This document shows positions 14,651 to 37,307 of a DNA stretch of 64,000 nucleotides, piece by piece. Positions within the stretch are counted from its first letter, which is position 1, and each line of letters opens with the position of its first letter. Origin of the DNA: Squalus acanthias (lineage: Eukaryota); assembly GCA_030390025.1 (NCBI GenBank), contig CM059431.1, positions 97,528,001 to 97,592,000 on the forward strand, written 5' to 3'. The position numbers and the translations under genes are program-made. The notes under the pieces were generated by a model. That model saw only the letters and a list, made by a program, of their open reading frames with translations. It was not told the DNA's origin and made no database searches.

Positions 14651-14726
14651 GTTTAGTTTTGTGGCGGCAGCAGTCAGGGCACCACTAACTGGGGGTGTCT
14701 CACGAGTCGCTCCACAGGCTCCATTT

Positions 14727-15234: not shown

Positions 15235-15480
15235 GTAAGGCGTGTTGATAGAGTGACTGGGGAGACTGTTTCCACTGGTTGGGGAATCAGTGATGAGGGG
15301 TCGTTAATTTAAAATGATCACATGAGCGTGAGGAGAGAGGTGAGGAGAGGCTTCTGCACATTGCCCATTGATGGAGCAGCAAATGTGTCACCACAGGGAG
15401 TGGATGAGGCAGCGACCAAAGCATCCTTTCAGGGAAAATTTGAAGCAGAGAAATATACAGGGCTATGGGGAGAGTGCAGG
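15235..15480 (+). mobile_element. Old degenerate CR1 ORF2 C-terminal region running directly into the 49-bp satellite
   Basis: gagactgtttccactggttggggaatc (LFPLVGES), gaggagagaggtgaggagagg (RREVRR), then atacagggctatggggagag (IQGYGE). Confidence 0.7.
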
Positions 15481-18400
15481 GCTCTGGGATTAGATTGGGA
15501 TTGATACTGGGCTATGGGGAGAGAGCGGGGCAGTGGGATTATTTTGGGATTGATACAGGGCTATGGGGAGAGAGCGGGGCAGTGGGATTAGTTTGGGATT
15601 AATACAGGGCTATGGGGAGAGTGCAGGGCACTGGGATTAGATTGGGATTGATACTGGGCTATGGGGAGAGAGCGGGGCAGTGGGATTATTTTGGGATTGA
15701 TACAGGGCTATGGGGAGAGAGCGGGGCAGTGGGATTATTTTGGGATTAATACAGGGCTATGGGGAGGGGGCGTGGCAGTGGGATTAGTTTGGGATTGGTT
15801 CGGGGCTATGGGGAGGGAGCGGGGCAGTGGGATTAGTTTGAGATTGATACAGGGCTATCGGGAGAGCGCGGGGCAGTGGGATTAGTTTGGGATTGATACA
15901 GCGCTCTGGGGAGAAAGTGGGGCATTGGGATTAGTTTGGGATTGATACAGGGCTATGGGGAGAATGGGGAAGGGGGATTAGTTTGGGATTGATATAGGGC
16001 TATGGGGAGAGAGCAGGGCAGTGGGATTAGTTTGGGATAGATACAGGGCTATGGGGAGAGAGCGGGACATTGGGATTAGTTTGGGATTGATTCAGGACTA
16101 TGGGGAGAGCGCGGGGCTGTGGGATTAGTTTGGATTGATACAGGGCTATGGGGAGAGAGCGGGGCAGTGGGATTAGTTTGGGATTGATAAAGGGCTATGG
16201 GGAGAGAGCAGGGCAGTGGGATTAGTTTGGGATTGATACACGGGTCTGGGGAGAGAGTGAGGCAGTGGGATTAGTTTGGGATTGATACAAGGCTCTGGGG
16301 AGAGAGCGGGGCAGTGGGATTAGTTTGGGATTGATACAGGGCTCTGGGGAGAGAGCGAGGCAGTGGGATTAGTTTGGGATTGATACAGGGCTATGGGGAG
16401 AGGGCGGAGCAGTGGGATTAGTTTGGGATTAATACAGGGCTATGGGGAGAGAGCGGGGCAGTGGGATTAATTTGGGATTGATTCAGGACTGTTGGGAGAG
16501 AGTGGGACAGTGGGATTAGTTTAAGATTGATACAGGGCTCTGGGGCGAGAGTGGGACAGTGGGATTAGATTAGGATTGATACAGGTCTATGGGGAGAGAG
16601 CAGTGCAGTGGGATTAGTTTGGGATTGATCCAGGGCTATGGGGAGAGAGCAAGGCAGTGGGATTCATTTGAGATTGAGACAGGGCTATGGGGAGAGAGCG
16701 GGGCAGTGGCATTAGTTTGGGATTGGTACAGGGCTATGGGGAATGAGCGAGGCAGTGGGATTAGTTTGGGTTTGATACAGGGCTATGGGGAATGAGCGGG
16801 GCAGTGGGATTTGTTTGGGTTTGATACAGGGCTATGGGGAATGAGCGGGGCAGTGGCATTAGTTTGGGATTGATTCAGGGCTATGGGCAGAGAGCAGGGA
16901 AGTGGGATTAGTTTGTGATTGCTACAGGGCTATGGGGGGAGAGAGGGGCAGTGGGATTAGTTTGTGATTGATACAGGGCTATGGGGAGAGAGCGGGGCAG
17001 TGGGATTAGTTTGTGATTGATACAGGGCTATGGGGGGAGAGCGGGGCAGTGGGATTAGTTTGGGATTGATACACGGCTCTGGGGAGAGAGTGAGGCAGTG
17101 GGATTAGTTTGGGATTGATACTGGGCTCTGGGAAGAGAGTGGGGCAGTGGGATTAGTTTGGGATTGATAAGGGCTCTGGGAAGAGAGTGGGGCAGTGGGA
17201 TTAGTTTGGGATTGATACAGGGCTCTGAGGAGAGAGCGGGGCAGTGGGATTAGTTTGGGATTGATACAGGGCTCTGGGGAGGGAGCGGGGCAGTGGGATT
17301 AGTATGGGTTTGATACAGGGCTAGGGGAGAGATCGGGGCAGTGGGATTAGTTTGGGATTGATACAGGGTTATGGGGAGAGAGTGGGGCAGTGGGATTAGT
17401 TTGGGGTTGATACAGGGCTATGGGGAGAGAGCGGGGCAGTGGGATTAGTTTGGGATTGATACAGGGCTCTGGGGAGGGAGCGGGGCAGTGGGATTAGTAT
17501 GGGTTTGATACAGGGCTAGGGGAGAGATCGGGGCAGTGGGATTAGTTTGGGATTGATACAGGGCTATGGGGAGAGAGTGGGGCAGTGGGATTAGTTTGGG
17601 GTTGATACAGGGCTATGGGGAGAATGGGGAAGGGGGATTAGTTTGGGATTGATATAGGGCTATGGGGAGAGAGCAGGGCAGTGGGATTAGTTTGGGATAG
17701 ATACAGGGCTATGGGGAGAGAGCGGGACATTGGGATTAGTTTGGGATTGATACAGGGCTATGGGGAGAGCGCGGGTCAGTGGGATTAGTTTGGGATTGAT
17801 TCAGGACTATGGGGAGAGCGCGGGGCTGTGGGATTAGATTGGATTGATACAGGGCTATGGGGAGAGAGCGGGGCAGTGTGATTAGTTTGGGATTGATACA
17901 GGGCTATGGGGAGAGAGCAGGGCAGTGGGATTAGTTTGGGATTGATACACGGGTCTGGGGAGAGAGTGAGGCAGTGGGATTAGTTTGGGATTGATACAAG
18001 GCTCTGGGTAGAGAGCGGGGCAGTGGGATTAGTTTGGGATTCATAAGGGCTCTGCGAAGAGAGTGGGGCAGTGGGATTAGTTTGGGATTGATACAGAGCT
18101 CTGGGGAGAGAGCGGGGCAGTGGGATTAGTTTGGGATTGATACAGGGCTATGGAGAGAGAGCGGGGCAGTGGGATTAGTTTGGGTTTGATACAGGGCTAT
18201 GGAGAGAGCAGGGCAGTGGGATTAGTTTGGGATTGATACAGGGCTATGGGGAGAGGGCGGAGCAGTGGGATTAGTTTGGGATTGATTCAGGACTGTTGGG
18301 AGAGAGTGGGACAGTGGGATTAGTTTAAGTTTGATACAGGGCTCTGGGGCGAGAGTGGGACAGTGGGATTAGATTAGGATTGATACAGGTCTATGGGGAG

Positions 18401-19702
18401 AGAGCAGTGCAGTGGGATTAGTTTGGGATTGATCCAGCGCTATGGGGAGAGAGCGAGGCAGTGGGATTAGTTTGGGATTGATCCAGGGCTATGGGGAGAG
18501 AGCAAGGCAGTGGGATTCATTTGAGATTGAGACAGGGCTATGGGGAGAGAGCGGGGCAGTGGCATTAGTTTGGGATTGGTACAGGGCTATGGGGAATGAG
18601 CGTGGCAGTGGGATTAGTTTGGGTTTGATACAGGGCTATGGGGAATGAGCGGGGCAGTGGCATTAGTTTGGGATTGATTCAGGGCTATGGGCAGAGAGCA
18701 GGGAAGTGGGATTAGTTTGTGATTGCTACAGGGCTATGGGGGGAGAGAGGGGCAGTGGGATTAGTTTGTGATTGATACAGGGCTATGGGGAGAGAGCGGG
18801 GCAGTGGCATTAGTTTGGGATTGGTAAAGGGCTATGGGGAGAGAGCAGGGAAGTGGGATTAGTTTGTGATTGATACAGGGCTATGGGGGGAGAGCGGGGC
18901 AGTGGGATTAGTTTGGGATTGATACACGGCTCTGGGGAGAGAGTGAGGCAGTGGGATTAGTTTGGGATTGATACTGGGCTCTGGGAAGAGAGTGGGGCAG
19001 TGGGATTAGTTTTCGATTGATAAGGGCTCTGGGAAGAGAGTGCGGCAGTGGGATTAGTTTGGGATTGATACTGGGCTCTGGGAAGAGAGTGGGGCAGTGG
19101 GATTAGTTTGGGATTGATAAGGGCTCTGGGAAGAGAGTGCGGCAGTGGGATTAGTTTGGGATTGATACAGGGCTCTGGGGAGAGAGCGGGGCAGTGGGAT
19201 TAGTTTGGGATTGATACAGGGCTCTGGGGAGGGAGCGGGGCAGTGGGATTAGTATGGGTTTGATACAGGGCTATGGAGAAAGTGGGGAAGTGGGATTAGT
19301 TTTGGATTGATACAGGGCTATGGGGAGAGAGCGGGTCAGTGGGAGTAGTTTGGGATTGATTCAGGACTATGGGGAGAGGGCGTGGCAGTGAAATTAGTTT
19401 GGGATTGATACAGGGCTCTGGGGAGGGAGCGGGGCAGTGGGATTAGTTTGGGATTGATACAGGGCTATCGGGAGAGCGCGGGGCAGTGGAATTAGTTTGG
19501 GATTGATGCAGGGCTATCGGGAGAGCACAGGGCAGTGGGATTAGTTTGGGATTGAAACAGCGCTCTGGGGAGAGAGTGGGGCATTGGGATTAGTTTGGGA
19601 TTGATACAGGGCTATGGGGAGAGTGGGGAAGTGGGATTAGTTTGGGTTTAATACAGGGCTATGGGGAGAGAGCAGGGCAGTGGGATTAGTTTGGGATAGA
19701 TA
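15455..19702 (+). repeat. 49-bp G-rich satellite (gggattagtttgggattgatacagggctatggggagagagcggggcagt)n, left block, ~87 units
   Basis: Direct tandem repeats with recurring variant units. Confidence 0.97.
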
Positions 19703-21536
19703 AGAACATAAGAACAGAAGAAACAGGAGCAGGAGTAGGCCAATTGGCCCCTCGAGCCTGCTCCGCCATTCAATAAGATCATGGCTGATCTGATCCTAAA
19801 CGCCAATCTACTATCACAGAACCATCTCCTGAACCTAACAGAATTGGACACATGAAATAGGAGCAGGATCAGGCTACACGGCCCCTGGGCCCGCTGCGCT
19901 ACCCACAGGGCCATGACCGATCCGAACCTAGACTCATGTCCAAATTCCTGCCCGCTCCCCATAACCCTTAATTCCCTTTACTTCTAGGAAACTGTCTATT
20001 TCTGTTTTAAATTTATTTAATGATGTAGCTTCTACAGCTTTTTGGGGCAGCATATTCCATGGACCTACCACCCTCTGAGTGAAGTAGTTCCTTCTCATCT
20101 CAGTTTTGAAAGAGCAGCCCCTTATTCTAAGACTATGTCCCCTTGTTCTAGGTTCACCCATCATCGGGAACATCCTCCCCGCATCCACCCGATCCAACCC
20201 CTTCACAATCTTATATGTTTCAATAAGATCGCCTCTCATTCTTCTGAACTCCAATGAGTAGAGTCCCAATCTACCCAACCTCTTCTCATATGTCCATCCC
20301 CTCATCCCCGGGATTAACCGAGTGAACCTTCTTTGTACTGACTCGAGAGCAAGTATGTCTTTTCTTAAGTATGGACACCAAAACTGTATGCAGTATTCCA
20401 GGTGCGGTCTCACCAATACCCTATACAACTGAAGCAATACCTCCCTATTTTTATATTCTATCCCCCTAACAATGAAAGCCAACATTCCATTGGCCTTCTT
20501 AATCACTTGCTGCACCTGCATACTAACCTTTTGAGTTTCGTGCACCAGGACCCCCAGATCCCTTTGTACTTCAGTACTTTCCAATTTCTTGCCATTAAGA
20601 TAATAACTTGCTCTACTATTTTTCCTGCCAAAGTGCATAACCTCACACTTTCCAGTATTGTATTCCATCTGCCAAATCTCTGCCCACTTACTTAGCCTGT
20701 CTATGTCCCCTTGCAGATTTTTTATGTCCTCCTCACTCACTACTTTCCCTCCCATCTTAGTATCATCTGGAAACTTTGATATGTTACACTCGGTCTCCTC
20801 CTCCAAATCGTTAATATAGATTGTAAAGAGTTGGGGACCCAGCACTGACCCCTGCGGAACACCACTAGTTACTGATTGCCAGTCTGAGAATGAACCATTT
20901 ATCCCAACTCTCTGCCTTCTGTTAGATAGCCAATCCTCTATCCATGCCAGAATATTACCCCCAATCCCGTGATTTTTTATCTTAAGCAATAATCTTTTGT
21001 GTGGCACCTTGTCAAATGCCTTTTGGAAGTCTAAATACACCACATCCACTGGTTCCCCTTTATCCACCCTATATGTTACTTCCTCAAAGAACTCCAGCAA
21101 ATTTGTCAAACATGACTTCCCCTTCATAAAACCATGCTGACTTTGTCCTATTAAATTATGATTATCCAAATGTCCCGTTACTGTGTCCTTAATAATGGAC
21201 TCCAAAATTTTACCTACCACAGATGTTAGGCTAACCGCTCTATAGTTTCCAGCATTCTGTCTACTGCCCTTTTTAAATAAGGGTGTTACATTAGCAGTTT
21301 TCCAGTCTGCCGGGATCTTTGCTGAGTCCAGGGAGTTTTGGAAAATTATTACCAATGCATCCACAATCCCTACCGCCACTTCCCTCAAGACCCTAGGATG
21401 TAAGCCATCAGGTCCAGGTGATTTATCCGCCTTGAGTCCCATTATTTTACCGAGTACCACTTCCTTAGTGATTTTGATCGTGTTTAGTTCCTCCCCCCCT
21501 ATAGCCCTCTGTTTGTCCAGTGTTGGGATATTCTTA

Positions 21537-22309
21537 GGGGTAAAAATTGAGTCGCGCCCCATTTGGGGCGCTAACCTCGCCGGGGCGCGACTTTTAGCGC
21601 CCCAAAAAAATTAGCGGCCCCGCGCCGGAACTTCAGTGGTTGCGCCCCAAGAGGGAAGCGGGGCGCCACTGGAAGCACCCCACATCCCTCTTGGGGCGCT
21701 GCGAGTGAATATCCTGGCGCTACGTGCCGCAGCGCCACGCGCTGCGGCACGTCGCGCCGCGGTATTGCAGGCCTTCCTCCCCTTCTTAAAGGGGAGGGAC
21801 CCTGCGCAGCGCGAACCGGGGCCCAGCTGGGCCCCCAGGGATCGGGAGTGCCGGCAAAAGAGCCCGGCACTCAAGAGAAGTGCCGGGCTCTTGGAGCGCA
21901 GCCGGCACTTCACGGTGGGGGGGCTTCACGGGGGCCGGGGACAGCAACGGGGGCAGGTGCTGGCAGGCGGCCAGCAACAAAAATGGCCGCCTGCCACCTC
22001 CCCTTTAAATATCGCCGCCCCGGCCGCACGTACGCCTCCCTGAACCCGTCGGACATAGCGTCTGGCGGTAAATCAGGGGGCGCGACTGAAGATCACGGCC
22101 GGGGCGCAAGCGGGGTGCTGCGCACGGCGATGACGTCATCGCCGGCGGCGCAGCGCCACAGGGCGCTACCGGCTGCCACCGCCGCTAACCTCCCACTAAA
22201 TTTTTCGGGAGGCGTGGGCGGCGCTGCGCCCGGGCGTTAGCTGCTTTACGCCCCATTAGCGCCCTCTTAAGGCGCTAACGGCAGGCGCAAGCAGCTGAAT
22301 TTTTCCCCC
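21537..22309. mobile_element. PIF/Harbinger-type MITE with TTA target-site duplication
   Basis: TTA-GGGGTAAAAATT...AATTTTTCCCCC-TTA; removing it restores the CR1 peptide VEDTKNIPT. Confidence 0.85.
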
Positions 22310-22609
22310 TTAGTGTCCTCTACTGTAAAGACTGATACAAAATATTCATTCAGTGTATTTGCCATCTCCATATTTCCCACCATTAATTTCCCGGTCTCAT
22401 CCTCTAAGGGACCAACATTTACTTTAGCTACCCTTTTTCTTTTTATATAACTATAAAAACTCTTACTATCTGTTTTTATATTTTTTGCTAATTTACTTTC
22501 ATAATCTATCTTCCCTTTCTTAATCAATCTTTTTGTTATTTTTTGCTGTCTTTTAAAGTTTTCCCAATCCTCTATCCTCCCACTAGATTTGGCTACCTTA
22601 AAAGCCCTT

Positions 22610-23502
22610 GGGGGAGAAATTCAGTATCGCCCCATTTGGGGTGCAATTATCGGCCGGGCGCAAAGATTAGCGCCTGGCGCTAATTATCGCCACCGACTGC
22701 AAACTTGACTTTTATTGACCCTGGAGGTGATTGGAGCGCTAAATCAGGCGCTTCACACCTGTCTTAAGGCGCAAAGGCCGAGGAGCGAGGCGCTACCTCA
22801 GAGCACTGGCGAAGCTCATGTGATGTCAGTCAGCAATGGAACACACACACAATGGCACGGGCCAGTTCTTAAAGGGGATGGATAATCTTGCTTTCCATCC
22901 ACATCCTGCTCATTGCAGCCTTGAATCTCGGCCTGGAGAGACCTGCACATCAAATCTGCTGGAAAGAACAATGGAGAGTACGAGGCAAAGAGCTCAGAGT
23001 GCAGCCCCCACAGTCTCTTCTAAATCGATACAAGGAATGGCAAATCAAAATGAACCTGCAAAGTGCTGCTCAGTACCCAAAATTCCTTCAGACAACGTTG
23101 AATCTCTCCAGAAGTCTCTCTCTCTCTCTCTCAGAATGCGTAGTTCAAAAATGGCACCAACAATAAAAGGCAGGAAGCGGTCACCTTTAAATAGCACTCC
23201 CCCTTTCCCTTCATGACTGCAGAACGCTCCCCTCAACCTGTCGTTGCTAGCATCAGGCGGTAAGGCAGGGGGCGCCACTCAATATCCGCTCCGGGGCGAT
23301 ACCGGGGCGTTGCGCACTCGACTGACGTCACGATCTGCCGGCGCAGGAGATCGTGGTGGTAGTGTTTAGCGCCGCCGCAAAATGTCTAGTTAATTTTGCG
23401 AGCGGCGCAAACTTCGCCGCGCCTGGGCGCTAGATGCTTTGCGCCCCATTAGTGCCCTCTTAAGGCGCTAACGGGAGGCGCAACCAACTGAATTTTTCCC
23501 CC
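22610..23502. mobile_element. PIF/Harbinger-type MITE with a 3-bp CTT duplication
   Basis: CTT-GGGGGAGAAATT...AATTTTTCCCCC-CTT; right end nearly identical to 22240-22309; removal restores RLKTRAFKVA. Confidence 0.8.
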
Positions 23503-24562
23503 CTTGTTTTTAGTCGAATACTATCCTTAATTTCTTTACTTAGCCACGGATGACTGTCTTTTCTTTTACACCCTTTTCTTCTCAGTGGAATATATTTTTT
23601 TTGGAAGTTGTAAAATAACTCCTTAAATGTACACCACTGATCATGTATCGTCTTACCCGTTAATCTATTTTCCCAATCCACTCTACTCAATTCCGCTCGC
23701 ATACCTTCATAGTCTCCTTTATTCAAGCTTAGCACGCTTGTTTGAGATCCAACCTTCCCACCCTCTAATTGAATATGGAATTCAACCATGTTATGGTCAC
23801 TCATTCCAAGGGGATCCTTTACTAGGACATTTTTAATTAATCCTATCTCGTTACACAGGACCAGATCTAAGGTTGCTTGCCCCCTGGTCGGTTCAGTTAC
23901 ATACTGCTCAAGAAACCCATCCCTAATACACTCAATGAACTCATCCTCAAGGCAGCCCTGCCCAATTTGAGTTGTCCAATTAATACGATAGTTAAAATCC
24001 CCCATAATTATAGATGTTCCCTTATTACAAGCCTCAACTATTTCCTGATTGATACTCCGTCCAACAGAGTTGCAACTGTTCGGAGGCCTATAGACTACGC
24101 CCACTAGTGTTTTTTTCCCCTTATTATTCCTTATCTCCACCCAAACTGTTTCATTATCCTGATCTTTTGACCTAATATCATTTCTCTGTATTACAGTGAT
24201 TCCTTCCTTTATTAACATAGCCACCCCACCTCCCCTTCCTTCCTGCCTGTCCTTCCTGATCGTTAAATAACCTGGTATGTTTAATTCCCAGGCATTGTCA
24301 CCCTGCAGCCATGTTTCTGTAATGGCCACAAGATCATACCCATATGTAGTTATTTGTGCCATTAACTCATCTATTTTGTTACGAATGCTACGTGCATTCA
24401 GATAGAGAACTTTCAAATATGTTTTGTGACACTTAGTTCCTGCTTTTGCCCTTTTTATTACTTTACCTTTTACTCCATACCTTCTGCCCCTTCCTGACAC
24501 ACTCTGGTTTTTAATTTCCCCGCTGCTACCTAAGTCTATGACCTTCTCTGTTGTCATTTTTA

Positions 24563-25787
24563 CGACAACCAGTTTTTTACCCAAAAACACGGAACAGCCA
24601 TGGGGACCAAATTCGCACCCCAATACGCCAACATCTTCATGCACAAGTTCGAGCAAGACTTCTTCGCTGCACAGGACCTCCAACCAACGCTGTACACCAG
24701 ATACATCGACAACATCTTCTTCCTTTGGACCCACGGCGAAGGATCACTGAAAGGACTACACGATAACATCAACAGGTTCCATCCCACCATCAAACTCACC
24801 ATGGACTACTCCTCAGAATCGGTTTCATTCTTGGACACACGAATCTCCATCAAAGACGGACACCTCAGGACTTCACTCTACCGCAAGCCCACGGACAACC
24901 TCACGATGCTCCACTTCTCCAGCTTCCACCCTAACCACGTTAAAGAAGCCATCCCCTATGGACAAGCCCTGCGAATACACAGGATCTGCTCAGACGAGGA
25001 GGAACGCGATGGACACCTACGGACGCTGAAAGACGCCCTCGTAAGAACGGGATATGACGCTCGACTCGTCGATCGACAGTTCCGACGGGCCACAGCGAAA
25101 AACCGCATAGACCTCCTCAGAAGGCGAACACGGGACACAACCAACAGAGTACCCTGCGTCGTCCAGTACTTCCCCGGAGCGGAGAAACTACGCCATGTTC
25201 TTCGCAGCCTTCAACATGTCATCGATGACGACGAACACCTTGCTAAGGCCATCCCCACGCCTCCACTACTCGCCTTCAAGCAGCCGCCTAACCTCAAAAG
25301 TACCATCGTTCGCAGCAAATTACCCAGCTGTCAGGAGAACAGCGACCACGACACCACACAACCCTGCCACGGCAACCTCTGCAAGACATGCCAGATCATC
25401 AACACAGATACCATCATCACACGTGAGGACACTACCCACCAGGTACATGGTACATACTCATGTGACTCGGCCAACGTTGTCTACCTCATACGTTGCAGGA
25501 AAGGATGCCCCGGAGCATGGTACATCGGCGAGACCATGCAGACACTGAGACAACGTATGAACGGACACCGCGCAACAATCGCCAGGCAGGATTGTTACCT
25601 CCCAGTCGGGGAACACTTCAGCAGTCAAGGACATTCAGCCTCAGATCTGCGGGTAAGCGTTCTCCAAGGCGGCCTTAGAGACACACGACAACGCAAAATC
25701 ATCGAGCAGAAACTGATAGCCAAGTTCCGCACCCATGAGGACGGCCTCAATAGGGATCTCGGGTTCCTGTCACGCTACAGAACGTGA
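24563..25787 (+). pseudogene. Penelope RT C-terminal half plus GIY-YIG endonuclease; 5'-truncated, YIDD changed to YIDN
   Basis: GTAMGTKFAP, RYIDNIF, YRKPTD, CKTC, VVYLIRC...YIGET...RMNGH, GLNRD. Confidence 0.9.
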
Positions 25788-26061
25788 AGCGACATCATTG
25801 TCTGTCTTTCCAGTTTAAAAAAAAAACACACAAAATTAAAACAACCAAAAAAAAACAACCAAAAAAAAAACTCAAAAAAAAGTTAGGAGCTCAACTGCAG
25901 ATGGCAGCATTTGACACGTTGGACCCCCTGTGACCCACCTCATTGTCTTGGCTGTGCTCTGATGTGTCTTTGATGTCGTGCCTTCCTGATGGATTGTATC
26001 TCTGTAGACAAGTCGCTCTCTGTGTATATATACTGTGTATTAGATTCCCTCACTGTACCTC

Positions 26062-26097
26062 TACCTGACAAAGGAGCAGCAGCTCCGAAAGCTCGTA
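26062..26097 (+). ncRNA. Minimal hammerhead ribozyme-like motif in the Penelope 3' end (core variant CUGACAA)
   Basis: UAC-CUGACAA-A-GGAGC-AGCA-GCUCC-GAA-AGCU-C-GUA: stem I UAC/GUA, stem II GGAGC/GCUCC, palindromic AGCU at stem III. Confidence 0.65.
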
Positions 26098-26185
26098 ATT
26101 TTAAATAAAACTGTTGGACTATAACTTGGTGTTGTGCGACTTGTCATTTTTATTATTTGCTCTCCAGGAACCTCCCCCCCACTAG

Positions 26186-27140
26186 TTAGTTTAAAGCCCT
26201 CTCTACAGCCCTAGTTATGTGATCCGCCAGGACTCTAGTCCCAGCACTGGCCAAGTGAAGCCCGTCCCAACGGAACAGCTCCCTCCTGCCCCAGTACTGG
26301 TGCCAGTGTCCCAGGAAGCAAAACCCATTTCTCCCGCACCAGTCTTTGAGCCACTCATTTAACTCTCTAATTTTATTTGTCCTAGCCAAATTCACTCGTG
26401 GCTCAGGTAATAATCCAGAGATTATTACCCTTGAGGTTCTGTTTTTTAATTTGACCCCTAGCTGCTCATACTCCTTTAACAGAACCGGCTTCCTTGTCCT
26501 ATCTACGTCGTTTGTACCAACATGGACCACGACAATTGGATCCACCCCCTCCCACTGCAAGTTTCTTTCCAGCCCAGAGAAGATGTCCTTAACCCTGGCA
26601 CCGGGCAGGCAACACAGCCTACGGGACTCTCGCTCTCGGCTGCAGAGAACTCTATCTATCCCCCTAATAATACTATCCCCTACCACTACAACATTTCTAT
26701 TTACTTCCCCCCTCTTGAATGGCCCCCCGTTCCACGGTGCTGTGGCCAGGTTGCTCATCCTCCCTGCAGTCCCCGCTCCTGTCCCCACAGGGAGTAAGAA
26801 CCTCAAACCTGTTGGACAAGAGCAAGGGCTGCGGCTCCTCCAACACTACCTCCTGGATCCCCGTACCTGCCTCACTCGTAGTCACACCGTCCTGTCCCTG
26901 ACCATGGGCTACATCTGAATTAATTAACTTCATAGGTGTGACCACCTCCTGAAACACAGAGTCCAGGTCATTCTCCCCCTCCCTGATGTGTCGCAGTGTC
27001 TGAAGCTCAGACTCCAGCTCATCAATACGGAGCTGGAGTTCCTGTAGCAGCAGACACTTGTCACAGATGTAATCACCGTAAGCCTCAATGGGGTCCACCG
27101 GCTCCCACATCTCGCAACAGTAACACATCACCTGCTCCAT
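26186..27140 (-). pseudogene. CR1 ORF1 (zinc finger/leucine zipper plus SGNH/GDSL esterase domain) with one frameshift at the C6 run 26707-26712
   Basis: CxxC..W...CxKC followed by LQLRIDELESELQTL; then, in the adjacent frame, VVVGDSIIR, CCLPGARV, HVGTND, DGLHL. Confidence 0.9.
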
Positions 27141-27352
27141 TCTATGTAATTAATTACATTTTTTATTGTTAGTTATGGACACTCACTGCCCGATTATAGA
27201 TGCTAGTATCCCCTCTAATTAATTGGATTTAAATTAAATCAATCCCTCTAAATTACACCAGTTAAATGGTTTACCAACAGTCACTCTGCACCAGAAAGGC
27301 CTTATTAACTACAACCAACAGAGTTTAAGTTTAAAAGAGAGAAATACTCACC

Positions 27353-30300
27353 AGATACAGGGCTATGGGGAGAGAGCGGGACATTGGGATTAGTTTGGGA
27401 TTGATACACGGCTATGGGGAGAGAGCGGGGCAGTGGGATTAGTTTGGGATTGATACCGGGCTATGGGGAGAGAGCGGGGCAGTGGGATTAGTTTGGGCTT
27501 GATACAGGACCATTGGGAGAGAGCAGAACAGTGGGATTAGTTTCGGATTGATTCAGGTCTATGGGGAGAGAGCGGGGCAGTGGGATTAGTTTGGGATTGA
27601 TTCAGGACTATGGGGAGAGAGCGGGGCAGTGGAATTAGTTTGGGATTGATACAGGGCTCTGGGGAGGGAGCGGGGCAGTGGGATTAGTTTGGGATTGATA
27701 CAGGGCTATCGGGAGAGAGCGGGGCAGTGGGATTAGTTTAAGATTGATACCGGGCTATGGGGAGAGAGCGGGGCAGTGGGATTAGTTTGGGCTTGATACA
27801 GGACCATTGGGAGAGAGCAGGACAGTGGGATTAGTTTCGGATTGATACAGGGCTATATGGAAAGACCGGGGCAGTGGAATTAGTTTGGGATTGATACAGG
27901 GCTCTGGGGAGGGAGCGGGGCAGTGGGATTAGTTTGGGATTGATACAGGGCTATCGGGAGAGCGCGGGGCAGTGGGATTAGTTTGGGGTTGATACAGCGC
28001 TCTGGGGAGAGAGTGGGGCATTGAGATTAGTTTGGGATTGATACAGGGCTATGGGGAGAGTGGGGAAGTGGGGTTAGTTTGGGATTGATATAAGGCTATG
28101 GGGAGAGAGCAGGGCAGTGGGATTAGTTTGGGATAGCTACAGGGCTATGGGGAGAGAGCGGGACATTGGGATTAGTTTGGGATTGATACAGGGCTATGGG
28201 GAGAGAGCGGGGCAGTGGGATTAGTTTGGGATTGATACCAAGCTATGGGAGAGAGCGGGGCAGTGGGATTAGTTTGGGATTGATACAGGGCTATGGGGAG
28301 AGAGCGGGGCAGTGGGATTAGTTTGGGCTTGATACAGGACCATTGGGAGAGAGCAGAACAGTGGGATTAGTTTGGGATTGATACAGGTCTATGAGGAGAG
28401 AGCGGGGCACTGGGATTAGTTTCGGATTGATACCGGGCTATGGGGAAAGCGCGGGGCAGTGGGAATAGTTTGGGATTGATACAGGGCTATGGGGAGAGCG
28501 CGGGGCAGTGGAATTAGTTTGGGATTGATACAGGGCTATGTGGAGAGAGCGGGGCAGTGGGATTAGTTTCGGATTGATACAGGGCTATGTGGAGGGAGCT
28601 GGGCAGTGGAATTAGTTTATGGATTGATACAGGGCTATAGGGAGAGAGCGGGGCATTGGGATTAGTTTCGGATTGATACAGGGCTATGGGGAGAGAGCGG
28701 GGCAGTGGGATTAGTTTTGGATTGATGCAGGGCTATGGGGAGAGAGCGGGACAGTGGGATTAGTTTGGGATCCATACAGGGCTATGGGGAGAGAGCGGGG
28801 CAGTGGGATTAGTTTTGGATTAATGCAGGGCTATCGGGAGAGCGCGGGGCTGTGGGATTAGTTTGGATTGATACAGGGCTATGGGGAGAGAGCAGGGCAG
28901 TGGGATTAGTTTGGGATTGATACAGGGCTCTGGGGAGAAAGCGAGGCACTGGGATTAGTTTGGGATTGATACTGGGCTCTGTGAAGAGAGTGGGGCAGTG
29001 GGATTAGTTTGGGATTGATACAGGGCTCTGGGAAGAGAGTGGGGCAGTGGGATTAGTTTGGGATTGATACAGGGCTCTGGGGAGAGGTTGGGACAGTGGG
29101 ATTAGTATGGGTTTGATACTGGGCTATTGGGAGAGAGCGGGGCAGTGGCATTAGTTTGGGATTTGTACAGGGCTATGGGGAGAGAGTGGAGCAGTGGGAT
29201 TAGTTTGGGATTGATACAGGACTATGGAGTGAGAGCGGGGCAGTGGGATTAGTTTGGGATTGATACAGCGCTATGGGGAGAGGGCGGAGCAGTGGGAATA
29301 GTTTGGGATTAATACAGGGCTATGGGGAGAGAGCGGGGCAGTGGGATTAATTTGGGATTGATTCAGGACGCTGGGGAGGGAGCGGGGCAGCAGGATTGGT
29401 TTGGGATTGATACAGGGCTATCGGGAGAGAGTGGGATGTGGGATTAGTTTGGGATTGATATAGGGCTATGGGGAGAGAGCAGGGCAGTGGGATTAGTTTG
29501 GGATAGCTACAGGGCTATGGGGAGAGAACGGGACATTGGGATTAGTTTGGGATTGATACGGGGCTATGGGAAGAGAGCGGGGCAGTGGGATTAGTTTGGG
29601 ATTGATACCGGGCTATGGGAGAGAGCGGGGCAGTGGGTTTAGTTTGGGATTGATACAGGGTCATTGGGAGAGAGCAGGGCAGTGGGATTAGTTTCGGATT
29701 GATACAGGGCTATGTGGAGAGAGCTGGGCAGTGGGATTAGTCTGGGGATTGATACAGGGCTATAGGGAGAGAGTGGGGCAGTGGGATTAGTTTGGGATTG
29801 ATACAGGTCTATGGGGAGAGAGTGGGGCATTGGGATTAGTTTCGGATTGATGCAGGGCTATGGGGAGAGAGCGGGGCAGTGGGATTAGTTTGGGATCCAT
29901 ACAGGGCTATGGGGGAGTGCGGGGCAGTGGGATTAGTTTGGGGATTGATACAGGGCTATAGGGAGAGAGTGGGGCAGTGGGATTAGTTTGGGATCGATAC
30001 AGGGCTATGGGGAGAGAGCGGGGCTGTGGGATTAGTTTGGATTGATACAGTGCTATGGGGAGAGAGCGGGGCCGTGGGATTAGTTTGGGATTGATACAGG
30101 GCTATGGGGAGAGTGCAGGGCAGTGGGATTAGTTTGGGATTGATACAGGGTTCTGGGAAGAGAGTGGGGCAGTGGGATTAGTTTGGGATTGATACAGGGC
30201 TATGGGGAGAGAGCGGGGCAGTGGGATTAGTTTGGGATTGATACCAAGCTATGGGAGAGAGCGGGGCAGTGGGATTAGTTTGGGATTGATACAGGGCTAT

Positions 30301-33300
30301 GGGGAGAGAGCGGGGCAGTGGGATTAGTTTGGGCTTGATACAGGACCATTGGGAGAGAGCAGAACAGTGGGATTAGTTTGGGATTGATACAGGTCTATGA
30401 GGAGAGAGCGGGGCACTGGGATTAGTTTCGGATTGATACCGGGCTATGGGGAAAGCGCGGGGCAGTGGGAATAGTTTGGGATTGATACAGGGCTATGGGG
30501 AGAGCGCGGGGCAGTGGAATTAGTTTGGGATTGATACAGGGCTATGTGGAGAGAGCGGGGCAGTGGGATTAGTTTCGGATTGATACAGGGCTATGTGGAG
30601 GGAGCTGGGCAGTGGAATTAGTTTATGGATTGATACAGGGCTATAGGGAGAGAGCGGGGCATTGGGATTAGTTTCGGATTGATACAGGGCTATGGGGAGA
30701 GAGCGGGGCAGTGGGATTAGTTTTGGATTGATGCAGGGCTATGGGGAGAGAGCGGGACAGTGGGATTTGTTTGGGATCCATACAGGGCTATGGGGAGAGA
30801 GCGGGGCAGTGGGATTAGTTTTGGATTAATGCAGGGCTATCGGGAGAGCGCGGGGCTGTGGGATTAGTTTGGATTGATACAGGGCTATGGGGAGAGAGCA
30901 GGGCAGTGGGATTAGTTTGGGATTGATACAGGGCTCTGGGGAGAAAGCGAGGCACTGGGATTAGTTTGGGATTGATACTGGGCTCTGTGAAGAGAGTGGG
31001 GCAGTGGGATTAGTTTGGGATTGATACAGGGCTCTGGGAAGAGAGTGGGGCAGTGGGATTAGTTTGGGATTGATACAGGGCTCTGGGGAGAGGTTGGGAC
31101 AGTGGGATTAGTATGGGTTTGATACTGGGCTATTGGGAGAGAGCGGGGCAGTGGCATTAGTTTGGGATTTGTACAGGGCTATGGGGAGAGAGTGGAGCAG
31201 TGGGATTAGTTTGGGATTGATACAGGACTATGGAGTGAGAGCGGGGCAGTGGGATTAGTTTGGGATTGATACAGCGCTATGGGGAGAGGGCGGAGCAGTG
31301 GGAATAGTTTGGGATTAATACAGGGCTATGGGGAGAGAGCGGGGCAGTGGGATTAATTTGGGATTGATTCAGGACGCTGGGGAGGGAGCGGGGCAGCAGG
31401 ATTGGTTTGGGATTGATACAGGGCTATCGGGAGAGAGTGGGATGTGGGATTAGTTTGGGATTGATATAGGGCTATGGGGAGAGAGCAGGGCAGTGGGATT
31501 AGTTTGGGATAGCTACAGGGCTATGGGGAGAGAACGGGACATTGGGATTAGTTTGGGATTGATACGGGGCTATGGGAAGAGAGCGGGGCAGTGGGATTAG
31601 TTTGGGATTGATACCGGGCTATGGGAGAGAGCGGGGCAGTGGGATTAGTTTGGGATTGATACAGGGTCATTGGGAGAGAGCAGGGCAGTGGGATTAGTTT
31701 CGGATTGATACAGGGCTATGTGGAGAGAGCTGGGCAGTGGGATTAGTCTGGGGATTGATACAGGGCTATAGGGAGAGAGTGGGGCAGTGGGATTAGTTTG
31801 GGATTGATACAGGTCTATGGGGAGAGAGTGGGGCATTGGGATTAGTTTCGGATTGATGCAGGGCTATGGGGAGAGAGCGGGGCAGTGGGATTAGTTTGGG
31901 ATCCATACAGGGCTATGGGGGAGTGCGGGGCAGTGGGATTAGTTTGGGGATTGATACAGGGCTATAGGGAGAGAGTGGGGCAGTGGGATTAGTTTGGGAT
32001 CGATACAGGGCTATGGGGAGAGAGCGGGGCTGTGGGATTAGTTTGGATTGATACAGTGCTATGGGGAGAGAGCGGGGCCGTGGGATTAGTTTGGGATTGA
32101 TACAGGGCTATGGGGAGAGTGCAGGGCAGTGGGATTAGTTTGGGATTGATACAGGGTTCTGGGAAGAGAGTGGGGCAGTGGGATTAGTTTGGGATTGATA
32201 CAGGGCTCTGGGGAGAGCAGGGCAGTGGGATTAGTTTGGGATTGATACAGGGCTATGGGGAGAGGGCGGAGCAGTGGGATTAGTTTGGGATTAATACAGG
32301 GCTATGGGGAGAGAGCGGGGCAGTGGGATTAATTTGGGATTGATTCAGGACTGTTGGGAGAGAGTGGGACAGTGGGATTAGTTTAAGATTGATACAGGGC
32401 TCTGGGGCGAGAGTGGGACAGTGGGATTAGATTAGGATTGATACAGGTCTATGGGGAGAGAGCAGTGCAGTGGGATTAGTTTGGGATTGATCCAGGGCTA
32501 TGGGGAGAGAGCAAGGCAGTGGGATTCATTTGAGATTGAGACAGGGCTATGGGGAGAGAGCGGGGCAGTGGCATTAGTTTGGGATTGGTACAGGGCTATG
32601 GGGAATGAGCGTGGCAGTGGGATTAGTTTGGGTTTGATACAGGGCTATGGGGAATGAGCGGGGCAGTGGGATTTGTTTGAGATTGATACAGGGCTAGGGG
32701 AGAGATCGGGGCAGTGGGATTAGTTTGGGATTGATACAGGGCTATGGGCAGAGAGCAGGGAAGTGGGATTAGTTTGTGATTGCTACAGGGCTATGGGGGG
32801 AGAGAGGTGCAGTGGGATTAGTTTGTGATTGATACAGGGCTATGGGGAGAGAGCGGGGCAGTGGCATTAGTTTGGGATTGGTAAAGGGCTATGGGGAGAG
32901 AGCAGGGAAGTGGGATTAGTTTGTGATTGATACAGGGCTATGGGGGGAGAGAGGGGCATTGGGATTAGTTTCGGATTGATACAGGGCTATGGGGAGAGAG
33001 CGGGGCAGTGGGATTAGTTTGGGATCGATACAGGGCTATGGGGAGAGAGCGGGGCTGTGGGATTAGTTTGGATTGATACAGTGCTATGGGGAGAGAGCGG
33101 GGCCGTGGGATTAGTTTGGGATTGATACAGGGCTATGGGGAGAGAGCAGGGCAGTGGGATTAGTTTGGGATTGATACAGGGCTCTGGGGAGAAAGCGAGG
33201 CACCGGGATTAGTTTGGGATTGATACTGGGCTCTGGGAAGAGAGTGGGGCAGTGGGATTAGTTTGGGATTGATACAGGGCTCTGGGAAGAGAGTGGGGCA

Positions 33301-36300
33301 GTGGGATTAGTTTGGGATTGATACAGGGCTCTGGGGAGAGAGCGGGGCAGTGGGATTAGTTTGGGATTGATACAGGGCTCTGGGGAGAAAGCGAGGCACT
33401 GGGATTAGTTTGGGATTCATACTGGGCTCTGGGAAGAGAGTGGGGCAGTGGGATTAGTTTGGGACTGATACAGGGTTCTGGGAAGAGAGTGGGGCAGTGG
33501 GATTAGTTTGGGATTGATACAGGGCTCTGGGGAGAGAGCGGGGCAGCGGGATTAGTTTGGGATTGATACAGGGCTCTGGGGAGAAAGCGAGGCACTGGGA
33601 TTAGTTTGGGATTGATACTGGGCTCTGGGAAGAGAGTGGGGCAGTGGGATTAGTTTGGGACTGATACAGGGCTCTGGGAAGAGAGTGGGCAGTGGGATTA
33701 GTTTGGGATTGATACAGGGCTCTGGGGAGAGAGCGGAACAGTGGGATTAGTTTGGGATTGATACAGGGCTATGGGGAGAGGGCGGAGCAGTGGGAATAGT
33801 TTGGGATTTATACAGGGCTCTGGGGAGAGAGCGGGGCAGTGGGATTAATTTGGGATTGATTCAGGACTATTGGGAGAGAGCGGGACAGTGGGATTAGTTT
33901 GGGATTGATACAGGGCTATGGGGAGAGAGCGGGGCAGTGGGATTAGTTTGGGATCGATGCAGGGCTATGGGGAGAGAGGGGGGCAGTGGGATTAGTTTGA
34001 GGATTGATACAGGGCTATGGGGCGAGAGAGGGGCAGTGGGATTAGTTTGGGATTGATTCAGGACTATTGGGAGAGAGCGGGGCATTGGGATTAGTTTGGG
34101 ATTGATATCAGGCTATGGGGAGAAAGCAGGGCAGTGGGATTAGTTTGAGATTGATACAGGGCTATGGGGATAGAGCGGGGCATTGGGATTAGTTTGGGAT
34201 TGATACAGGGCTATGGGGGAGACAGCGGGGCAGTGGAATTAGTTTGAGGATTGATACAGGGCTATGGGGAGAGAGCAGGGCAGTGGGATTAGTTTGGGAT
34301 TGATACAGGGCTCTGGGGAGAAAGCGAGGCACCGGGATTAGTTTGGGATTGATACTGGGCTCTGTGAAGAGAGTGGGGCAGTGGGATTAGTTTGGGATTG
34401 ATACAGGGCTCTGGGAAGAGAGTGGGGCAGTGGGATTAGTTTGGGATTGATACAGGGCTCTGGGGAGAGCAGGGCAGTGGGATTAGTTTGGGATTGATAC
34501 AGGGCTATGGGGAGAGGGCGGAGCAGTGGGATTAGTTTGGGATTAATACAGGGCTATGGGGAGAGAGCGGGGCAGTGGGATTAATTTGGGATTGATTCAG
34601 GACTGTTGGGAGAGAGTGGGACAGTGGGATTAGTTTAAATTTGATACAGGGCTCTGGGGCGAGAGTGGGACAGTGGGATTAGATTAGGATTGATACAGGT
34701 CTATGGGGAGAGAGCAGTGCAGTGGGATTAGTTTGGGATTGATACAGGGCTATGGGAAATGAGCGGGGCAGTGGGATTTGTTTGTGATTGATACAGGGCT
34801 ATGGGGAGAGAGCGGGGCAGTGGCATTAGTTTGGGATTGGTACAGGGCTATGGGGAATGAGCGTGGCAGTGGGATTAGTTTGGGTTTGATACAGGGCTAT
34901 GGGAAATGAGCGGGGCAGTGGGATTTGTTTGAGATTGATACAGGGCTATGGGGAATGAGCGGGGCAGTGGCATTAGTTTGGGATTGATTCAGGGCTATGG
35001 GCAGAGAGCAGGGAAGTGGGATTAGTTTGTGATTGATACAGGGCTATGGGGGAGAGAGGGGCAGTGGGATTAGTTTGTGATTGATACAGGGCTATGGGGA
35101 GAGAGCGGGGCAGTGGCATTAGTTTGGGATTGTTACAGGGCTATGGGGGGAGAGAGGTGCAGTGGGATTAGTTTGTGATTGATACAGGGCTATGGGGAGA
35201 GAGCGGGGCAGTGGCATTAGTTTGGGTTTGATACAGGGCTATGGGGGGAGAGAGGTGCAGTGGGATTAGTTTGTGATTGATACAGGGCTATGGGGAGAGA
35301 GCGGGGCAGTGGCATTAGTTTGGGATTGTTACAGGGCTATGGGGGGAGAGCAGGGAAGTGGGATTAGTTTGTGATTGATACAGGGCTATGGGGAGAGAGT
35401 GGGGCAGTGGGATTAGTTTGGGATCGATACAGGGCTATGGGGAGAGAGCGGGGCTGTGGGATTAGTTTGGATTGATACAGTGCTATGGGGAGAGAGCGGG
35501 GCCGTGGGATTAGTTTGGGATTGATACAGGGCTATGGGGAGAGAGCAGGGCAGTGGGATTAGTTTGGGATTGATACAGGGCTCTGGGGAGAAAGCGAGGC
35601 ACCGGGATTAGTTTGGGATTGATACTGGGCTCTGGGAAGAGAGTGGGGCAGTGGGATTAGTTTGGGATTGATACAGGGCTCTGGGAAGAGAGTGGGGCAG
35701 TGGGATTAGTTTGGGATTGATACAGGGCTCTGGGGAGAGAGCGTGGCAGTGGGATTAGTTTGGGATTGATACAGGGCTCTGGGGAGAAAGCGAGGCACTG
35801 GGATTAGTTTGGGATTCATACTGGGCTCTGGGAAGAGAGTGGGGCAGTGGGATTAGTTTGGGACTGATACAGGGTTCTGGGAAGAGAGTGGGGCAGTGGG
35901 ATTAGTTTGGGATTGATACAGGGCTCTGGGGAGAGAGCGGGGCAGTGGGATTAGTTTGGGATTGATACAGGGCTCTGGGGAGAAAGCGAGGCACTGGGAT
36001 TAGTTTGGGATTGATACTGGGCTCTGGGAAGAGAGTGGGGCAGTGGGATTAGTTTGGGACTGATACAGGGCTCTGGGGAAGAGAGTGGGCAGTGGGATTA
36101 GTTTGGGATTGATACAGGGCTCTGGGGAGAGAGCGGAACAGTGGGATTAGTTTGGGATTGATACAGGGCTATGGGGAGAGGGCGGAGCAGTGGGAATAGT
36201 TTGGGATTTATACAGGGCTCTGGGGAGAGAGCGGGGCAGTGGGATTAATTTGGGATTGATTCAGGACTATTGGGAGAGAGCGGGACAGTGGGATTAGTTT

Positions 36301-37185
36301 GGGATTGATACAGGGCTATGGGGAGAGAGCGGGGCAGTGGGATTAGTTTGGGATCGATGCAGGGCTATGGGGAGAGAGGGGGGCAGTGGGATTAGTTTGA
36401 GGATTGATACAGGGCTATGGGGTGAGAGAGGGGCAGTGGGATTAGTTTGGGATTGATTCAGGACTATTGGGAGAGAGCGGGGCATTGGGATTAGTTTGGG
36501 ATTGATATCAGGCTATGGGGAGAAAGCAGGGCAGTGGGATTAGTTTGAGATTGATACAGGGCTATGGGGATAGAGCGGGGCATTGGGATTAGTTTGGGAT
36601 TGATACAGGGCTATGGGGGAGACAGCGGGGCAGTGGAATTAGTTTGAGGATTGATACAGGGCTATGGGGGGAGAGCGGGGCCGTGGGATTAGTTTGAGGA
36701 TTGATACTGGGCTATGGGGAGAGAGTGGGGCAGTGGGATTAATTTGGGATTGATTCAGGACTATTGGGAGAGAGCGGGACAGTGGGATTAGTTTGGGATT
36801 GATACAGGGCTATGGGGAGAGAGCGGGGCAGTGGGATTAGTTTGGGATCGATGCAGGGCTATGGGGAGAGAGGGGGGCAGTGGGATTAGTTTGAGGATTG
36901 ATACAGGGCTATGGGGTGAGAGAGGGGCAGTGGGATTAGTTTGGGATTGATTCAGGACTATTGGGAGAGAGCGGGGCATTGGGATTAGTTTGGGATTGAT
37001 ATCAGGCTATGGGGAGAAAGCAGGGCAGTGGGATTAGTTTGAGATTGATACAGGGCTATGGGGATAGAGCGGGGCATTGGGATTAGTTTGGGATTGATAC
37101 AGGGCTATGGGGGAGACAGCGGGGCAGTGGAATTAGTTTGGGATTGATACTGGGCTATGGGGAGAGAGCGGGGCAGTGGGATTAT
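27353..37185 (+). repeat. 49-bp G-rich satellite, right block, ~200 units, with kb-scale higher-order duplications
   Basis: Same unit; identical variant ORFs at 29639/31645 and at 33894/36294/36788. Confidence 0.97.
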
Positions 37186-37250
37186 TGTAGCAAAGAGTTG
37201 TTGCGGACCCGATGGGCTGAATGTTTTCCCGTGCTGTGAATGTCTGTTTT
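37186..37250 (+). mobile_element. Degenerate CR1 3'UTR remnant closing the 49-bp satellite
   Basis: caaagag...gacccgatgggctgaatgttttcccgtgctgtgaatgtct resembles the CR1 3'UTR gatgggccgaatggcctccttctgtgctgt (from recall). Confidence 0.55.
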
Positions 37251-37307
37251 GATGTTCACTTTATCACACTGTGGATTAAACCATTCCGTTTTTATTGTGT
37301 AGACTCA

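What the first reader, a model, noticed from the sequence alone, without database searches (positions are those of the whole stretch)
15235..37250. A ~14-kb 49-bp satellite born inside the ORF2 stop/3'UTR of a CR1 LINE
Seen: a decayed CR1 ORF2 end (LFPLVGES, RREVRR) runs straight into the array, and each unit encodes IQGYGERAGQWD*. That parallels the termini of other CR1 copies here (KGYGERAGIWT* at 19934, KGYGERAGK* at 62699). A CR1-3'UTR-like remnant resumes right after the last unit (37186-37250). Inference: one CR1 insertion was stretched apart by tandem amplification of the 49 bp spanning its stop codon, so the parent element still brackets the satellite.
Basis: partly seen in the sequence, partly recalled or inferred. 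Interest (0 to 1): 0.8.

Follow-up and report, generated by a model that had tools for sequence, protein, structure and literature searches.

The report
CR1-derived 49-bp satellite array
A 14-kb tandem array whose 49-bp unit is a copy of the last codons and stop codon of a CR1 jumping gene sits inside a decayed CR1 fragment, but the repeat is a very abundant satellite across this genome and its relatives, so it is one more example of a transposon-derived satellite.

Summary
There are 288 units of 49 bp (14,080 bp) in two blocks, 15454-19702 and 27354-37184. A 7,650-bp CR1-like LINE on the minus strand inserted later and splits them, with a 5-bp AGATA target duplication and the repeat phase kept. 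The consensus unit reads IQGYGERAGQWD*. It matches the stop-codon region of a profile built from 8 CR1 3' ends in the window. The left flank is a decayed CR1 ORF2 end that runs collinearly into unit 1 (nhmmer E 2e-10). The right flank matches the CR1 3'UTR core only weakly, though 0 of 2000 shuffles reach its score. The joined flanks align collinearly with single CR1 copies.

The "born here" inference is only partly supported. Public contigs give the unit about 2-4 x 10^5 times single-copy depth in this species, and millions of summed depth in three related species. So this is one array of a major multi-species satellite. My best reading is that a CR1 lineage carried the repeat in its 3'UTR and that this copy then expanded locally by block duplication. 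CR1- and LINE-derived satellites are already known, so this is a new member of a known kind.

The parts
15235..15453 (+). Left flank: a 5'-truncated, decayed CR1-like ORF2 3' end, readable only across three frames and with stops. It runs directly into the first unit.
   Evidence: nhmmer with a profile of 8 in-window CR1 3' ends hits 15246-15492 at model positions 6-266, E 2e-10, 33.9 bits. Three-frame translation shows QIVRRVDRV / LFPLVGES / RREVRR / ...NIQGYGE.
15454..19702 (+). Array block A: 87 units of 49 bp.
   Evidence: Units 1-3 resemble units 4-6, seen by eye.
19698..19702 (.). Left copy of the AGATA target-site duplication of the interrupting LINE.
   Evidence: One search prints both junctions. 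AGATA recurs at 27353-27357. The A before GATA is a non-consensus letter shared by both copies.
19703..27352 (-). A 7,650-bp CR1-like LINE inserted into the pre-existing array. It carries later nested insertions.
   Evidence: One search lists the ORFs. Pfam: RVT_1 (19937-21610, E 9.7e-30), Exo_endo_phos (23463-24743, E 2.3e-13) and GDSL esterase in ORF1 (26189-26845, E 5.3e-11). Its 3' tail at 19703 matches the other CR1 tails. The array phase continues across it.
27353..27357 (.). Right copy of the AGATA target-site duplication.
27354..37184 (+). Array block B: 201 units, the last ending ...GGGATTA. It contains a 41-unit (2,006-bp) tandem duplication, 28185-30190 and 30191-32196, with 2 mismatches.
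37185..37258 (+). Right flank: a short CR1-3'UTR-like remnant. Its core GCGGACCCGATGGGCTGAATG lies at 37203-37223.
   Evidence: nhmmer on the flank alone hits model positions 304-324 at -0.7 bits; 0 of 2000 shuffles reach this. In pairwise tests the best local hit starts at flank position 19 and maps to the 3'UTR core in 5 of 8 copies, with z of 1.5-3.0. The end coordinate was judged by eye.

Best explanation
The 49-bp repeat is a LINE-derived satellite. Its monomer is a contiguous piece of a CR1-like element covering the last ~12 codons of ORF2 (..GI.GYGERAG.W.), the stop codon and a few bases of 3'UTR. The family is very abundant across this genome and in related species. The array in this window is one member. 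It lies inside a 5'-truncated, decayed CR1 copy, with about 210 bp of ORF2 end on the left and about 70 bp of 3'UTR on the right. The most likely history has four steps. (1, inferred) In a CR1 lineage the stop-codon segment was tandemly duplicated. Because the segment includes the stop codon, ORF2 still ends at the first unit and the extra units simply lengthen the 3'UTR, so the element could stay mobile. (2, inferred) Retrotransposition scattered repeat-bearing, mostly 5'-truncated copies, and this locus is one of them. (3, shown) The local array grew by unequal exchange or replication slippage of multi-unit blocks. (4, shown) A full-length CR1 later inserted into the array.
For: Unit to CR1 homology: four CR1 copies hit the unit at their GYGERAG/stop region by blastn. 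118 units hit model positions 228-234 to 260-270, all on the + strand. The consensus unit has 27 of 36 identities at model 230-265, and 0 of 2000 shuffles reach its score. Bracket: left flank E 2e-10; right flank 0 of 2000 shuffles. The joined flanks are collinear with single CR1 copies in 3 of 8 pairwise alignments, z of 4.1-9.7. Read in the register that starts at GTTTGGGATT, the array is a whole number of units between the CR1 upstream and downstream sequence (by eye). Genome-wide family: in run X1 the summed contig depth on units 2-3 is 1.8-4.0 million, against 9.06 on the single-copy flank 15042-15177. The unit bins reach 3.0-19.0 million in X6, X9 and X14. At 15542, in the spacer that common CR1 copies lack, 2.02 of 2.15 million depth carries the satellite consensus letter, so this depth comes from the satellite and not from CR1 copies. 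X14 has its own dominant variant, 15560 G>A, at 10.3 of 14.0 million (all). With so many copies, a randomly met array is unlikely to be the single birthplace, whereas a carrier element predicts a bracket at every array (inference). Local growth: 272 of 288 units have a partner with 2 or fewer mismatches, mostly at lags of 41 and 49 units. There are only 154 distinct unit sequences, and a 2,006-bp block is repeated with 2 mismatches. Plausibility: CR1 tails here do duplicate, with a 26-bp x 2.3 repeat at 14756-14814 and a tail duplicated about 130 bp apart in the copy at 19703. A different element with an internal 33-bp array occurs four times in the window with homologous flanks.
Against: No second bracketed array and no repeat-bearing CR1 copy was seen. 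0 of the 8 other CR1 3' ends in the window carry more than one unit. Depth on the left flank falls to 12.8 (single copy is 9.06) at 15348-15381, so no paralogue shares the whole left flank at 85% likeness or more. Old copies that differ by more than 15% would escape that threshold. The right-flank match is weak. No target-site duplication was found around the putative parent. The tool warns that summed contig depth is not a copy number, so the abundance figure is an order of magnitude only.
Confidence: 0.5

Rival explanations
1. Birthplace. The first 49-bp duplication and the amplification happened in this very CR1 insertion. All other arrays in this and related genomes descend from it by non-LINE routes such as segmental duplication, circular DNA or unequal exchange between chromosomes.
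For: The array is a whole number of units directly between collinear CR1 parts. The units are old and diverged, with a mean of 8.05 mismatches per 49 between pairs. The flank is heavily decayed. The region is rich in transposons.
Against: The family has roughly 10^5 copy equivalents and is present in three other species. The chance that the one array in this window is the founder is therefore small unless arrays are few. Nothing at the locus separates a founder from a carried-in copy.
Confidence: 0.12
2. Homology-driven seeding. A pre-existing satellite entered an ordinary CR1 copy by recombination, gene conversion or template switching through the ~38-45 bp it shares with the CR1 stop region. 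That would give collinear junctions on both sides.
For: The junctions lie at the edges of the unit-CR1 homology. Multi-unit runs are shared across the LINE insertion, for example 9 units at 16382 and 32244 with 3 mismatches. This fits ongoing exchange between separated blocks, but it equally fits duplication before the LINE inserted.
Against: The shared homology is short and only about 75% identical (27 of 36), which is a poor substrate for recombination. Both flanks come from an atypical, diverged CR1 and not from the abundant families in the window. No direct trace of such an event was found.
Confidence: 0.12
3. Only the left side is CR1. The right flank's similarity is chance or comes from an unrelated element, and the array merely abuts or truncated a CR1 fragment.
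For: The right flank scores -0.7 bits. Pairwise z is 3.0 or less, and for 2 of the 8 copies it is at or below 0. Rfam finds nothing there.
Against: 0 of 2000 shuffles reach the profile score, and the hit is on the right strand and downstream of the unit in the model. The 18-mer core recurs within 3 mismatches only at another CR1 tail, 7133-7150; chance expectation is 0.03 matches. The left junction sits exactly at the homologous position.
Confidence: 0.1

Closest known systems
Chicken HinfI (SCR1) tandem repeat containing a CR1 fragment (Li & Leung 2006). I saw this only as cited in passages and tables of the reviews PMC9659126 and PMC6947457. The original paper was not read.
   Same: It is a tandem repeat related to a CR1 LINE. 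The review table gives the source region as the 3'UTR plus a partial coding region of ORF2, the same end of the element as here.
   Different: The review's citation title says the CR1 element is embedded in the repeat. Here the whole 49-bp monomer is a short stop-codon-spanning piece, the array lies inside a CR1 copy, and the host is a different vertebrate lineage. Unit sizes and abundance were not compared.
PisTR-A satellite from the hypervariable 3'UTR of Ogre LTR retrotransposons in pea (Macas et al. 2009, as cited in PMC9659126; passage seen).
   Same: This is the model I favour: tandem repeats carried in a retroelement's 3'UTR are spread with the element and amplified into satellite arrays.
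   Different: That case involves an LTR retrotransposon in a plant. Here, carriage by mobile CR1 copies is inferred and not shown.
Common cetacean satellite related to the 3' end of L1 (cited in PMC9659126; passage and table seen), and the chicken Cen satellites from CR1-C (table in PMC6947457).
   Same: These are abundant satellites whose monomers derive from the 3' part of a LINE.
   Different: They involve different LINE clades and longer monomers (recalled, not checked). No parent bracket was mentioned in the passages I saw.
Haber & Louis (1998) minisatellite birth by slippage between short flanking repeats (as described in PMC6947457; passage seen).
   Same: It offers a possible first step. 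A TTTG/TTG motif stands at the left edge (15438-15441) and at the start of the right flank (37185-37187), seen by eye.
   Different: The microhomology is only 3-4 bases and the alignment there is uncertain. This was not tested statistically.

Membership tests
Satellite DNA | Head-to-tail tandem monomers forming kb-scale arrays | tested here: met
   288 units, 14,080 bp, 88% matches.
Satellite DNA | High copy number in the genome beyond a single locus | tested here: met
   Summed contig depth is 1.8-4.0 million on units against 9.06 on single-copy flank in X1, and millions in X6, X9 and X14. This is an order of magnitude only; the tool warns that depth is not a copy number.
Satellite DNA | Non-coding | tested here: met
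   The longest stop-free stretch is 80 aa (block A) and 72 aa (block B) over six frames. 49 is not a multiple of 3.
Satellite DNA | Species-specific homogenised variants (concerted evolution) | tested here: inconclusive
   15560 G>A accounts for 10.3 of 14.0 million depth in X14 but 0.07 of 3.72 million in X1. This rests on one position and on contig depth only.
Transposon-derived satellite (LINE 3'-end type) | Monomer homologous to a defined segment of the element | tested here: met
   model positions 230-265, 27 of 36 identical, 0 of 2000 shuffles. The peptide GYGERAG.W.* is shared with CR1 ORF2 ends.
Transposon-derived satellite (LINE 3'-end type) | Array-element junctions collinear with the element | tested here: met
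   The left junction is strong (E 2e-10). The right junction is weak but in place. The joined flanks are collinear with single copies. This was tested at this one locus only.
Transposon-derived satellite (LINE 3'-end type) | Mobile copies of the element carrying short versions of the array | not testable with these tools
   No genome is held. 0 of 8 other CR1 tails in the window carry more than one unit.
CR1-clade LINE (flanks and interrupting element) | ORF2 with apurinic-type endonuclease plus reverse transcriptase | tested here: met
   Shown for the interrupting element: Exo_endo_phos E 2.3e-13 and RVT_1 E 9.7e-30. The left flank holds only the last ~70 codons.
CR1-clade LINE (flanks and interrupting element) | 3' end without poly(A), ending in short 8-nt-type repeats (the definition is recalled, not from a call) | tested here: met
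   The tails end ...CTCCTATTTCTTATGTTCTTAT with no A-run. For the right flank of the array this is inconclusive.
CR1-clade LINE (flanks and interrupting element) | RT phylogeny places it in CR1 and not in L2 or Rex1 | not tested
No tree was built.

The most novel reading that the evidence does not exclude
A still-coding CR1 lineage acquired a tandem repeat that begins in its last codons and includes its stop codon. ORF2 therefore stayed intact while the 3'UTR became a growing 49-bp array. Retrotransposition of that lineage then seeded a G-quadruplex-prone satellite of about 10^5 copies shared by several related species. This window would preserve one such carrier copy caught between seeding and expansion.
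Probability: 0.4. Interest if true: 0.55.

Novelty: new member of a known kind. Interest (0 to 1): 0.38.

Why it matters
Origins of satellites are rarely caught with the parent element still on both sides of the array. This locus gives a clean, base-level link between a major satellite and a 45-49 bp piece of a LINE. It also suggests a concrete, testable route of spread: carriage in the LINE's 3'UTR. The family appears to be one of the abundant satellites of this genome and its relatives, so knowing its origin helps repeat annotation and any later work on where these arrays sit on the chromosomes. The principle itself, satellites born from transposon ends including CR1, is already in the literature.

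Tried and rejected

Earlier findings of the scan: nothing was found by sequence, place or words.

Exact 33-mer of the unit in metagenome, viral and prokaryote contig collections: 0 matches in each.

Rfam: 0 matches at gathering score over the window, and 0 at E of 1 or less on 37100-37400.

Higher-order repeat: none. Mean unit-to-unit mismatch stays flat at 7.5-8.4 for lags 1-15.

Target-site duplication around the putative parent CR1: no shared 6-mer or longer between 15181-15260 and 37226-37330.

Plain blastn of the flanks against the window: only one weak left-flank hit (50648-50518, 62.9%) and none for the right flank. tblastn with one ORF2 gave E 0.022 for the left flank. The profile search was needed to see the homology.

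Orthologous site in relatives: runs X6, X9 and X14 gave no cover on the single-copy flank 15042-15177, so presence or absence of the array at this site in other species remains open.

Expression: no RNA holder was listed.

Literature: no paper on shark or elasmobranch satellites described this unit. The searches were 'CR1 / satellite DNA / shark' (listing only), 'satellitome / shark' (listing only) and 'elasmobranch / satellite DNA / tandem'. In the one hit of the last search, PMC11406177, I read passages; they give a different 46-bp Y-linked unit. Its supplements were not opened.

Exact mapping of the 10-nt spacer of the unit, either to CR1 codons upstream or to the bases after the stop: both alignments are possible and I left it open.
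Full report
WHAT IS THERE. Tandem Repeats Finder reports a 49-bp repeat at 15455-19702 (87.1 copies) and 27354-37184 (200.8 copies), both at 88% matches. My own segmentation gives 87 + 201 = 288 units and 14,080 bp. Both blocks have an identical consensus. Units differ from it by a mean of 4.5 of 49 positions and from each other by a mean of 8.05. There is no higher-order period. The + strand is strongly G-rich, with GC skew of about 0.65. The consensus unit reads IQGYGERAGQWD*; 29 of 288 units keep it exactly and 110 of 288 keep GYGE. The array is non-coding: the longest stop-free stretch is 80 aa.

THE INTERRUPTION. The two blocks are one array split by a 7,650-bp insertion at 19703-27352. 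It is a CR1-type LINE on the minus strand. Pfam finds RVT_1 (E 9.7e-30), Exo_endo_phos (E 2.3e-13) and a GDSL-esterase ORF1 (E 5.3e-11). Its 3' tail at 19703 matches the other CR1 tails in the window. AGATA stands on both sides, at 19698-19702 and 27353-27357, and the 49-bp phase continues across the insertion. The array therefore existed before this LINE arrived.

THE UNIT IS A PIECE OF CR1. I aligned eight CR1 3' ends from the window and built an nhmmer profile from them. 118 array units hit it, all on the + strand and all at model positions 228-234 to 260-270. That segment encodes ..GYGERAG.W. plus the stop codon. The consensus unit has 27 of 36 identities at model 230-265, and 0 of 2000 dinucleotide shuffles reach its score, although the margin is small at 1.5 against 1.0 bits. 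blastn independently matched the unit to the same place in four CR1 copies. Pairwise alignments suggest that nearly all 49 bp can be laid on a contiguous CR1 segment. Whether the 10-nt spacer corresponds to codons upstream or to the bases after the stop is unresolved.

THE FLANKS. The left flank 15246-15492 matches the profile at positions 6-266 with E 2e-10. The match runs without a break into unit 1 at the homologous position. It can be read only across three frames and contains stops, so it is an old, 5'-truncated copy. Contig depth shows that the sequence just upstream, 15042-15177, is single copy.

The right flank is weaker. Taken alone, 37185-37284 hits model positions 304-324, the most conserved 3'UTR core, with 16 of 21 identical at -0.7 bits. 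Still, 0 of 2000 shuffles reach that score, and the hit is on the right strand and downstream of the unit in the model. Its 18-base core recurs within 3 mismatches only at another CR1 tail, 7133-7150, where 0.03 matches are expected by chance.

I joined the flanks through one unit, inside a script. The joined sequence gives a single collinear local alignment to 3 of 8 CR1 copies, with z of 4.1, 4.5 and 9.7. For the other five copies the best local alignment covers only a part. The best alignment has 178 of 258 identical and runs from the ORF2 end through the unit to the 3'UTR core. No target-site duplication was found around this putative parent.

THE SATELLITE IS NOT PRIVATE TO THIS LOCUS. 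No genome is held, so I laid public contigs on 14600-15600 at 85% likeness or more. In run X1, from the same organism as the window by its code, the single-copy flank has depth 9.06. Units 2 and 3 have summed depths of 1.8 and 4.0 million, which is 2-4 x 10^5 single-copy equivalents. The same bins reach 4.2-11.1 million in X6, 3.0-8.1 million in X9 and 3.7-19.0 million in X14, three differently coded organisms.

This depth comes from the satellite and not from CR1 copies. At 15542, in the spacer, 2.02 of 2.15 million depth carries the satellite consensus letter. No CR1-type letter is among the listed differences inside unit 3. Many contigs show 47-50 and 98-99-base 'goes back' joints, and loose ends continue the array. 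X14 has its own dominant variant, 15560 G>A, at 10.3 of 14.0 million against 0.07 of 3.72 million in X1. The tool warns that summed contig depth is not a copy number, so I use it as an order of magnitude only.

Depth on the left flank is 126-2,314 at 15212-15347. It falls to 12.8 at 15348-15381 and rises again toward the array. So no paralogue shares the whole flank at 85% or more. Old copies would escape that threshold.

LOCAL GROWTH. 272 of 288 units have a partner with 2 or fewer mismatches elsewhere in the array, mostly at lags of 41 and 49 units. Only 154 unit sequences are distinct. A 41-unit, 2,006-bp block is repeated in tandem with 2 mismatches. A 9-unit run is shared across the LINE insertion with 3 mismatches. 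About half of the 14 kb therefore arose here, recently, by duplication of multi-unit blocks made of already diverged units.

READING. Three things are shown: the unit is CR1-derived; this array lies collinearly inside a decayed CR1 3' end; and it expanded locally and was later hit by another CR1. What is inferred is where the first duplication happened.

With around 10^5 copies in at least four organisms, the chance that the one array in this window is the founder is small. A CR1 lineage carrying the repeat in its 3'UTR would explain a bracket at any array. Such a lineage is plausible because the repeated segment includes the stop codon, so ORF2 is untouched. In this same window, CR1 tails show small tandem duplications. 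Another element with an internal 33-bp array occurs four times with homologous flanks.

I put the carrier model at about 0.5, the birthplace model at about 0.12, homology-driven seeding of a CR1 copy at about 0.12, and 'the right flank is not CR1' at about 0.1.

COMPARISON WITH WHAT IS KNOWN. Reviews list a chicken tandem repeat (HinfI/SCR1) related to the CR1 3'UTR plus partial ORF2, chicken centromeric satellites from CR1-C, the cetacean satellite from the L1 3' end, and PisTR-A from the Ogre 3'UTR (passages and tables in PMC9659126, and PMC6947457). The kind is therefore known. My library searches found no description of this unit in sharks or other elasmobranchs. I rate this as a new member of a known kind, with moderate interest as a clear example and as a lead to the origin of a major satellite.

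Noticed in passing
window 1909-2468 (+), 4845-5569 (-), 12903-13771 (-), 56049-56829 (-): Four arrays of a 33-bp unit, 17-26 copies each at 92-94% matches. They share homologous flanks of 54-108 bp upstream (three of the four arrays) and 119-321 bp downstream (all four), at 74-89% identity. This looks like a dispersed element carrying an internal minisatellite. The element itself was not identified.
   Followed up: partly
window 38540-43549: A 5-kb A-rich array of a degenerate 14-bp unit (GGGTCAAAATACAC, also scored at periods 29, 43 and 72) begins 1.35 kb downstream of the 49-bp array. AT skew there is 0.39-0.54.
   Followed up: no
window 14756-14814 and 19703-19933: Two CR1 3' tails carry their own small tandem duplications: 26 bp x 2.3 at 100% identity, and a tail segment present twice about 130 bp apart in the interrupting LINE. 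CR1 3' ends seem prone to tandem duplication in this genome.
   Followed up: partly
array units, + strand: 113 of 288 units, and the consensus, contain a canonical G-quadruplex motif (four runs of G3 or longer with loops of 7 or fewer). The remaining 49.9 kb of the window has 8 on the + strand and 3 on the - strand. In the CR1 copies aligned, the corresponding segment appears by eye to have only three such G runs.
   Followed up: partly
window 24534-25787 (+), nested in the interrupting LINE: A 417-aa stop-free frame on the opposite strand has no Pfam hit at E of 0.001 or less. By eye it contains a ...YIGET... stretch reminiscent of the GIY-YIG nuclease of Penelope-like elements; that motif is recalled, not tested. 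A G+C-rich stretch at about 21611-22240 also interrupts the LINE.
   Followed up: no
window 14736-14837: In contigs of all four runs, the CR1 3' tail core reaches summed depths of 8-33 million against about 9 for single copy in X1. This tail, probably shared with other elements, is among the most abundant sequences in these genomes.
   Followed up: no
window 15560 (phase 9 of the unit): Run X14 carries G>A at this position in 10.3 of 14.0 million depth, whereas X1 has it in 0.07 of 3.72 million. In the window's array, 24 of 288 units have A there. This suggests a species-specific homogenised variant.
   Followed up: partly
window 3827-4030 and 58473-58960: There are further short tandem arrays: a 20/60-bp G-rich unit with about 10 copies, and degenerate GT-rich repeats of 22-66 bp.
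   Followed up: no
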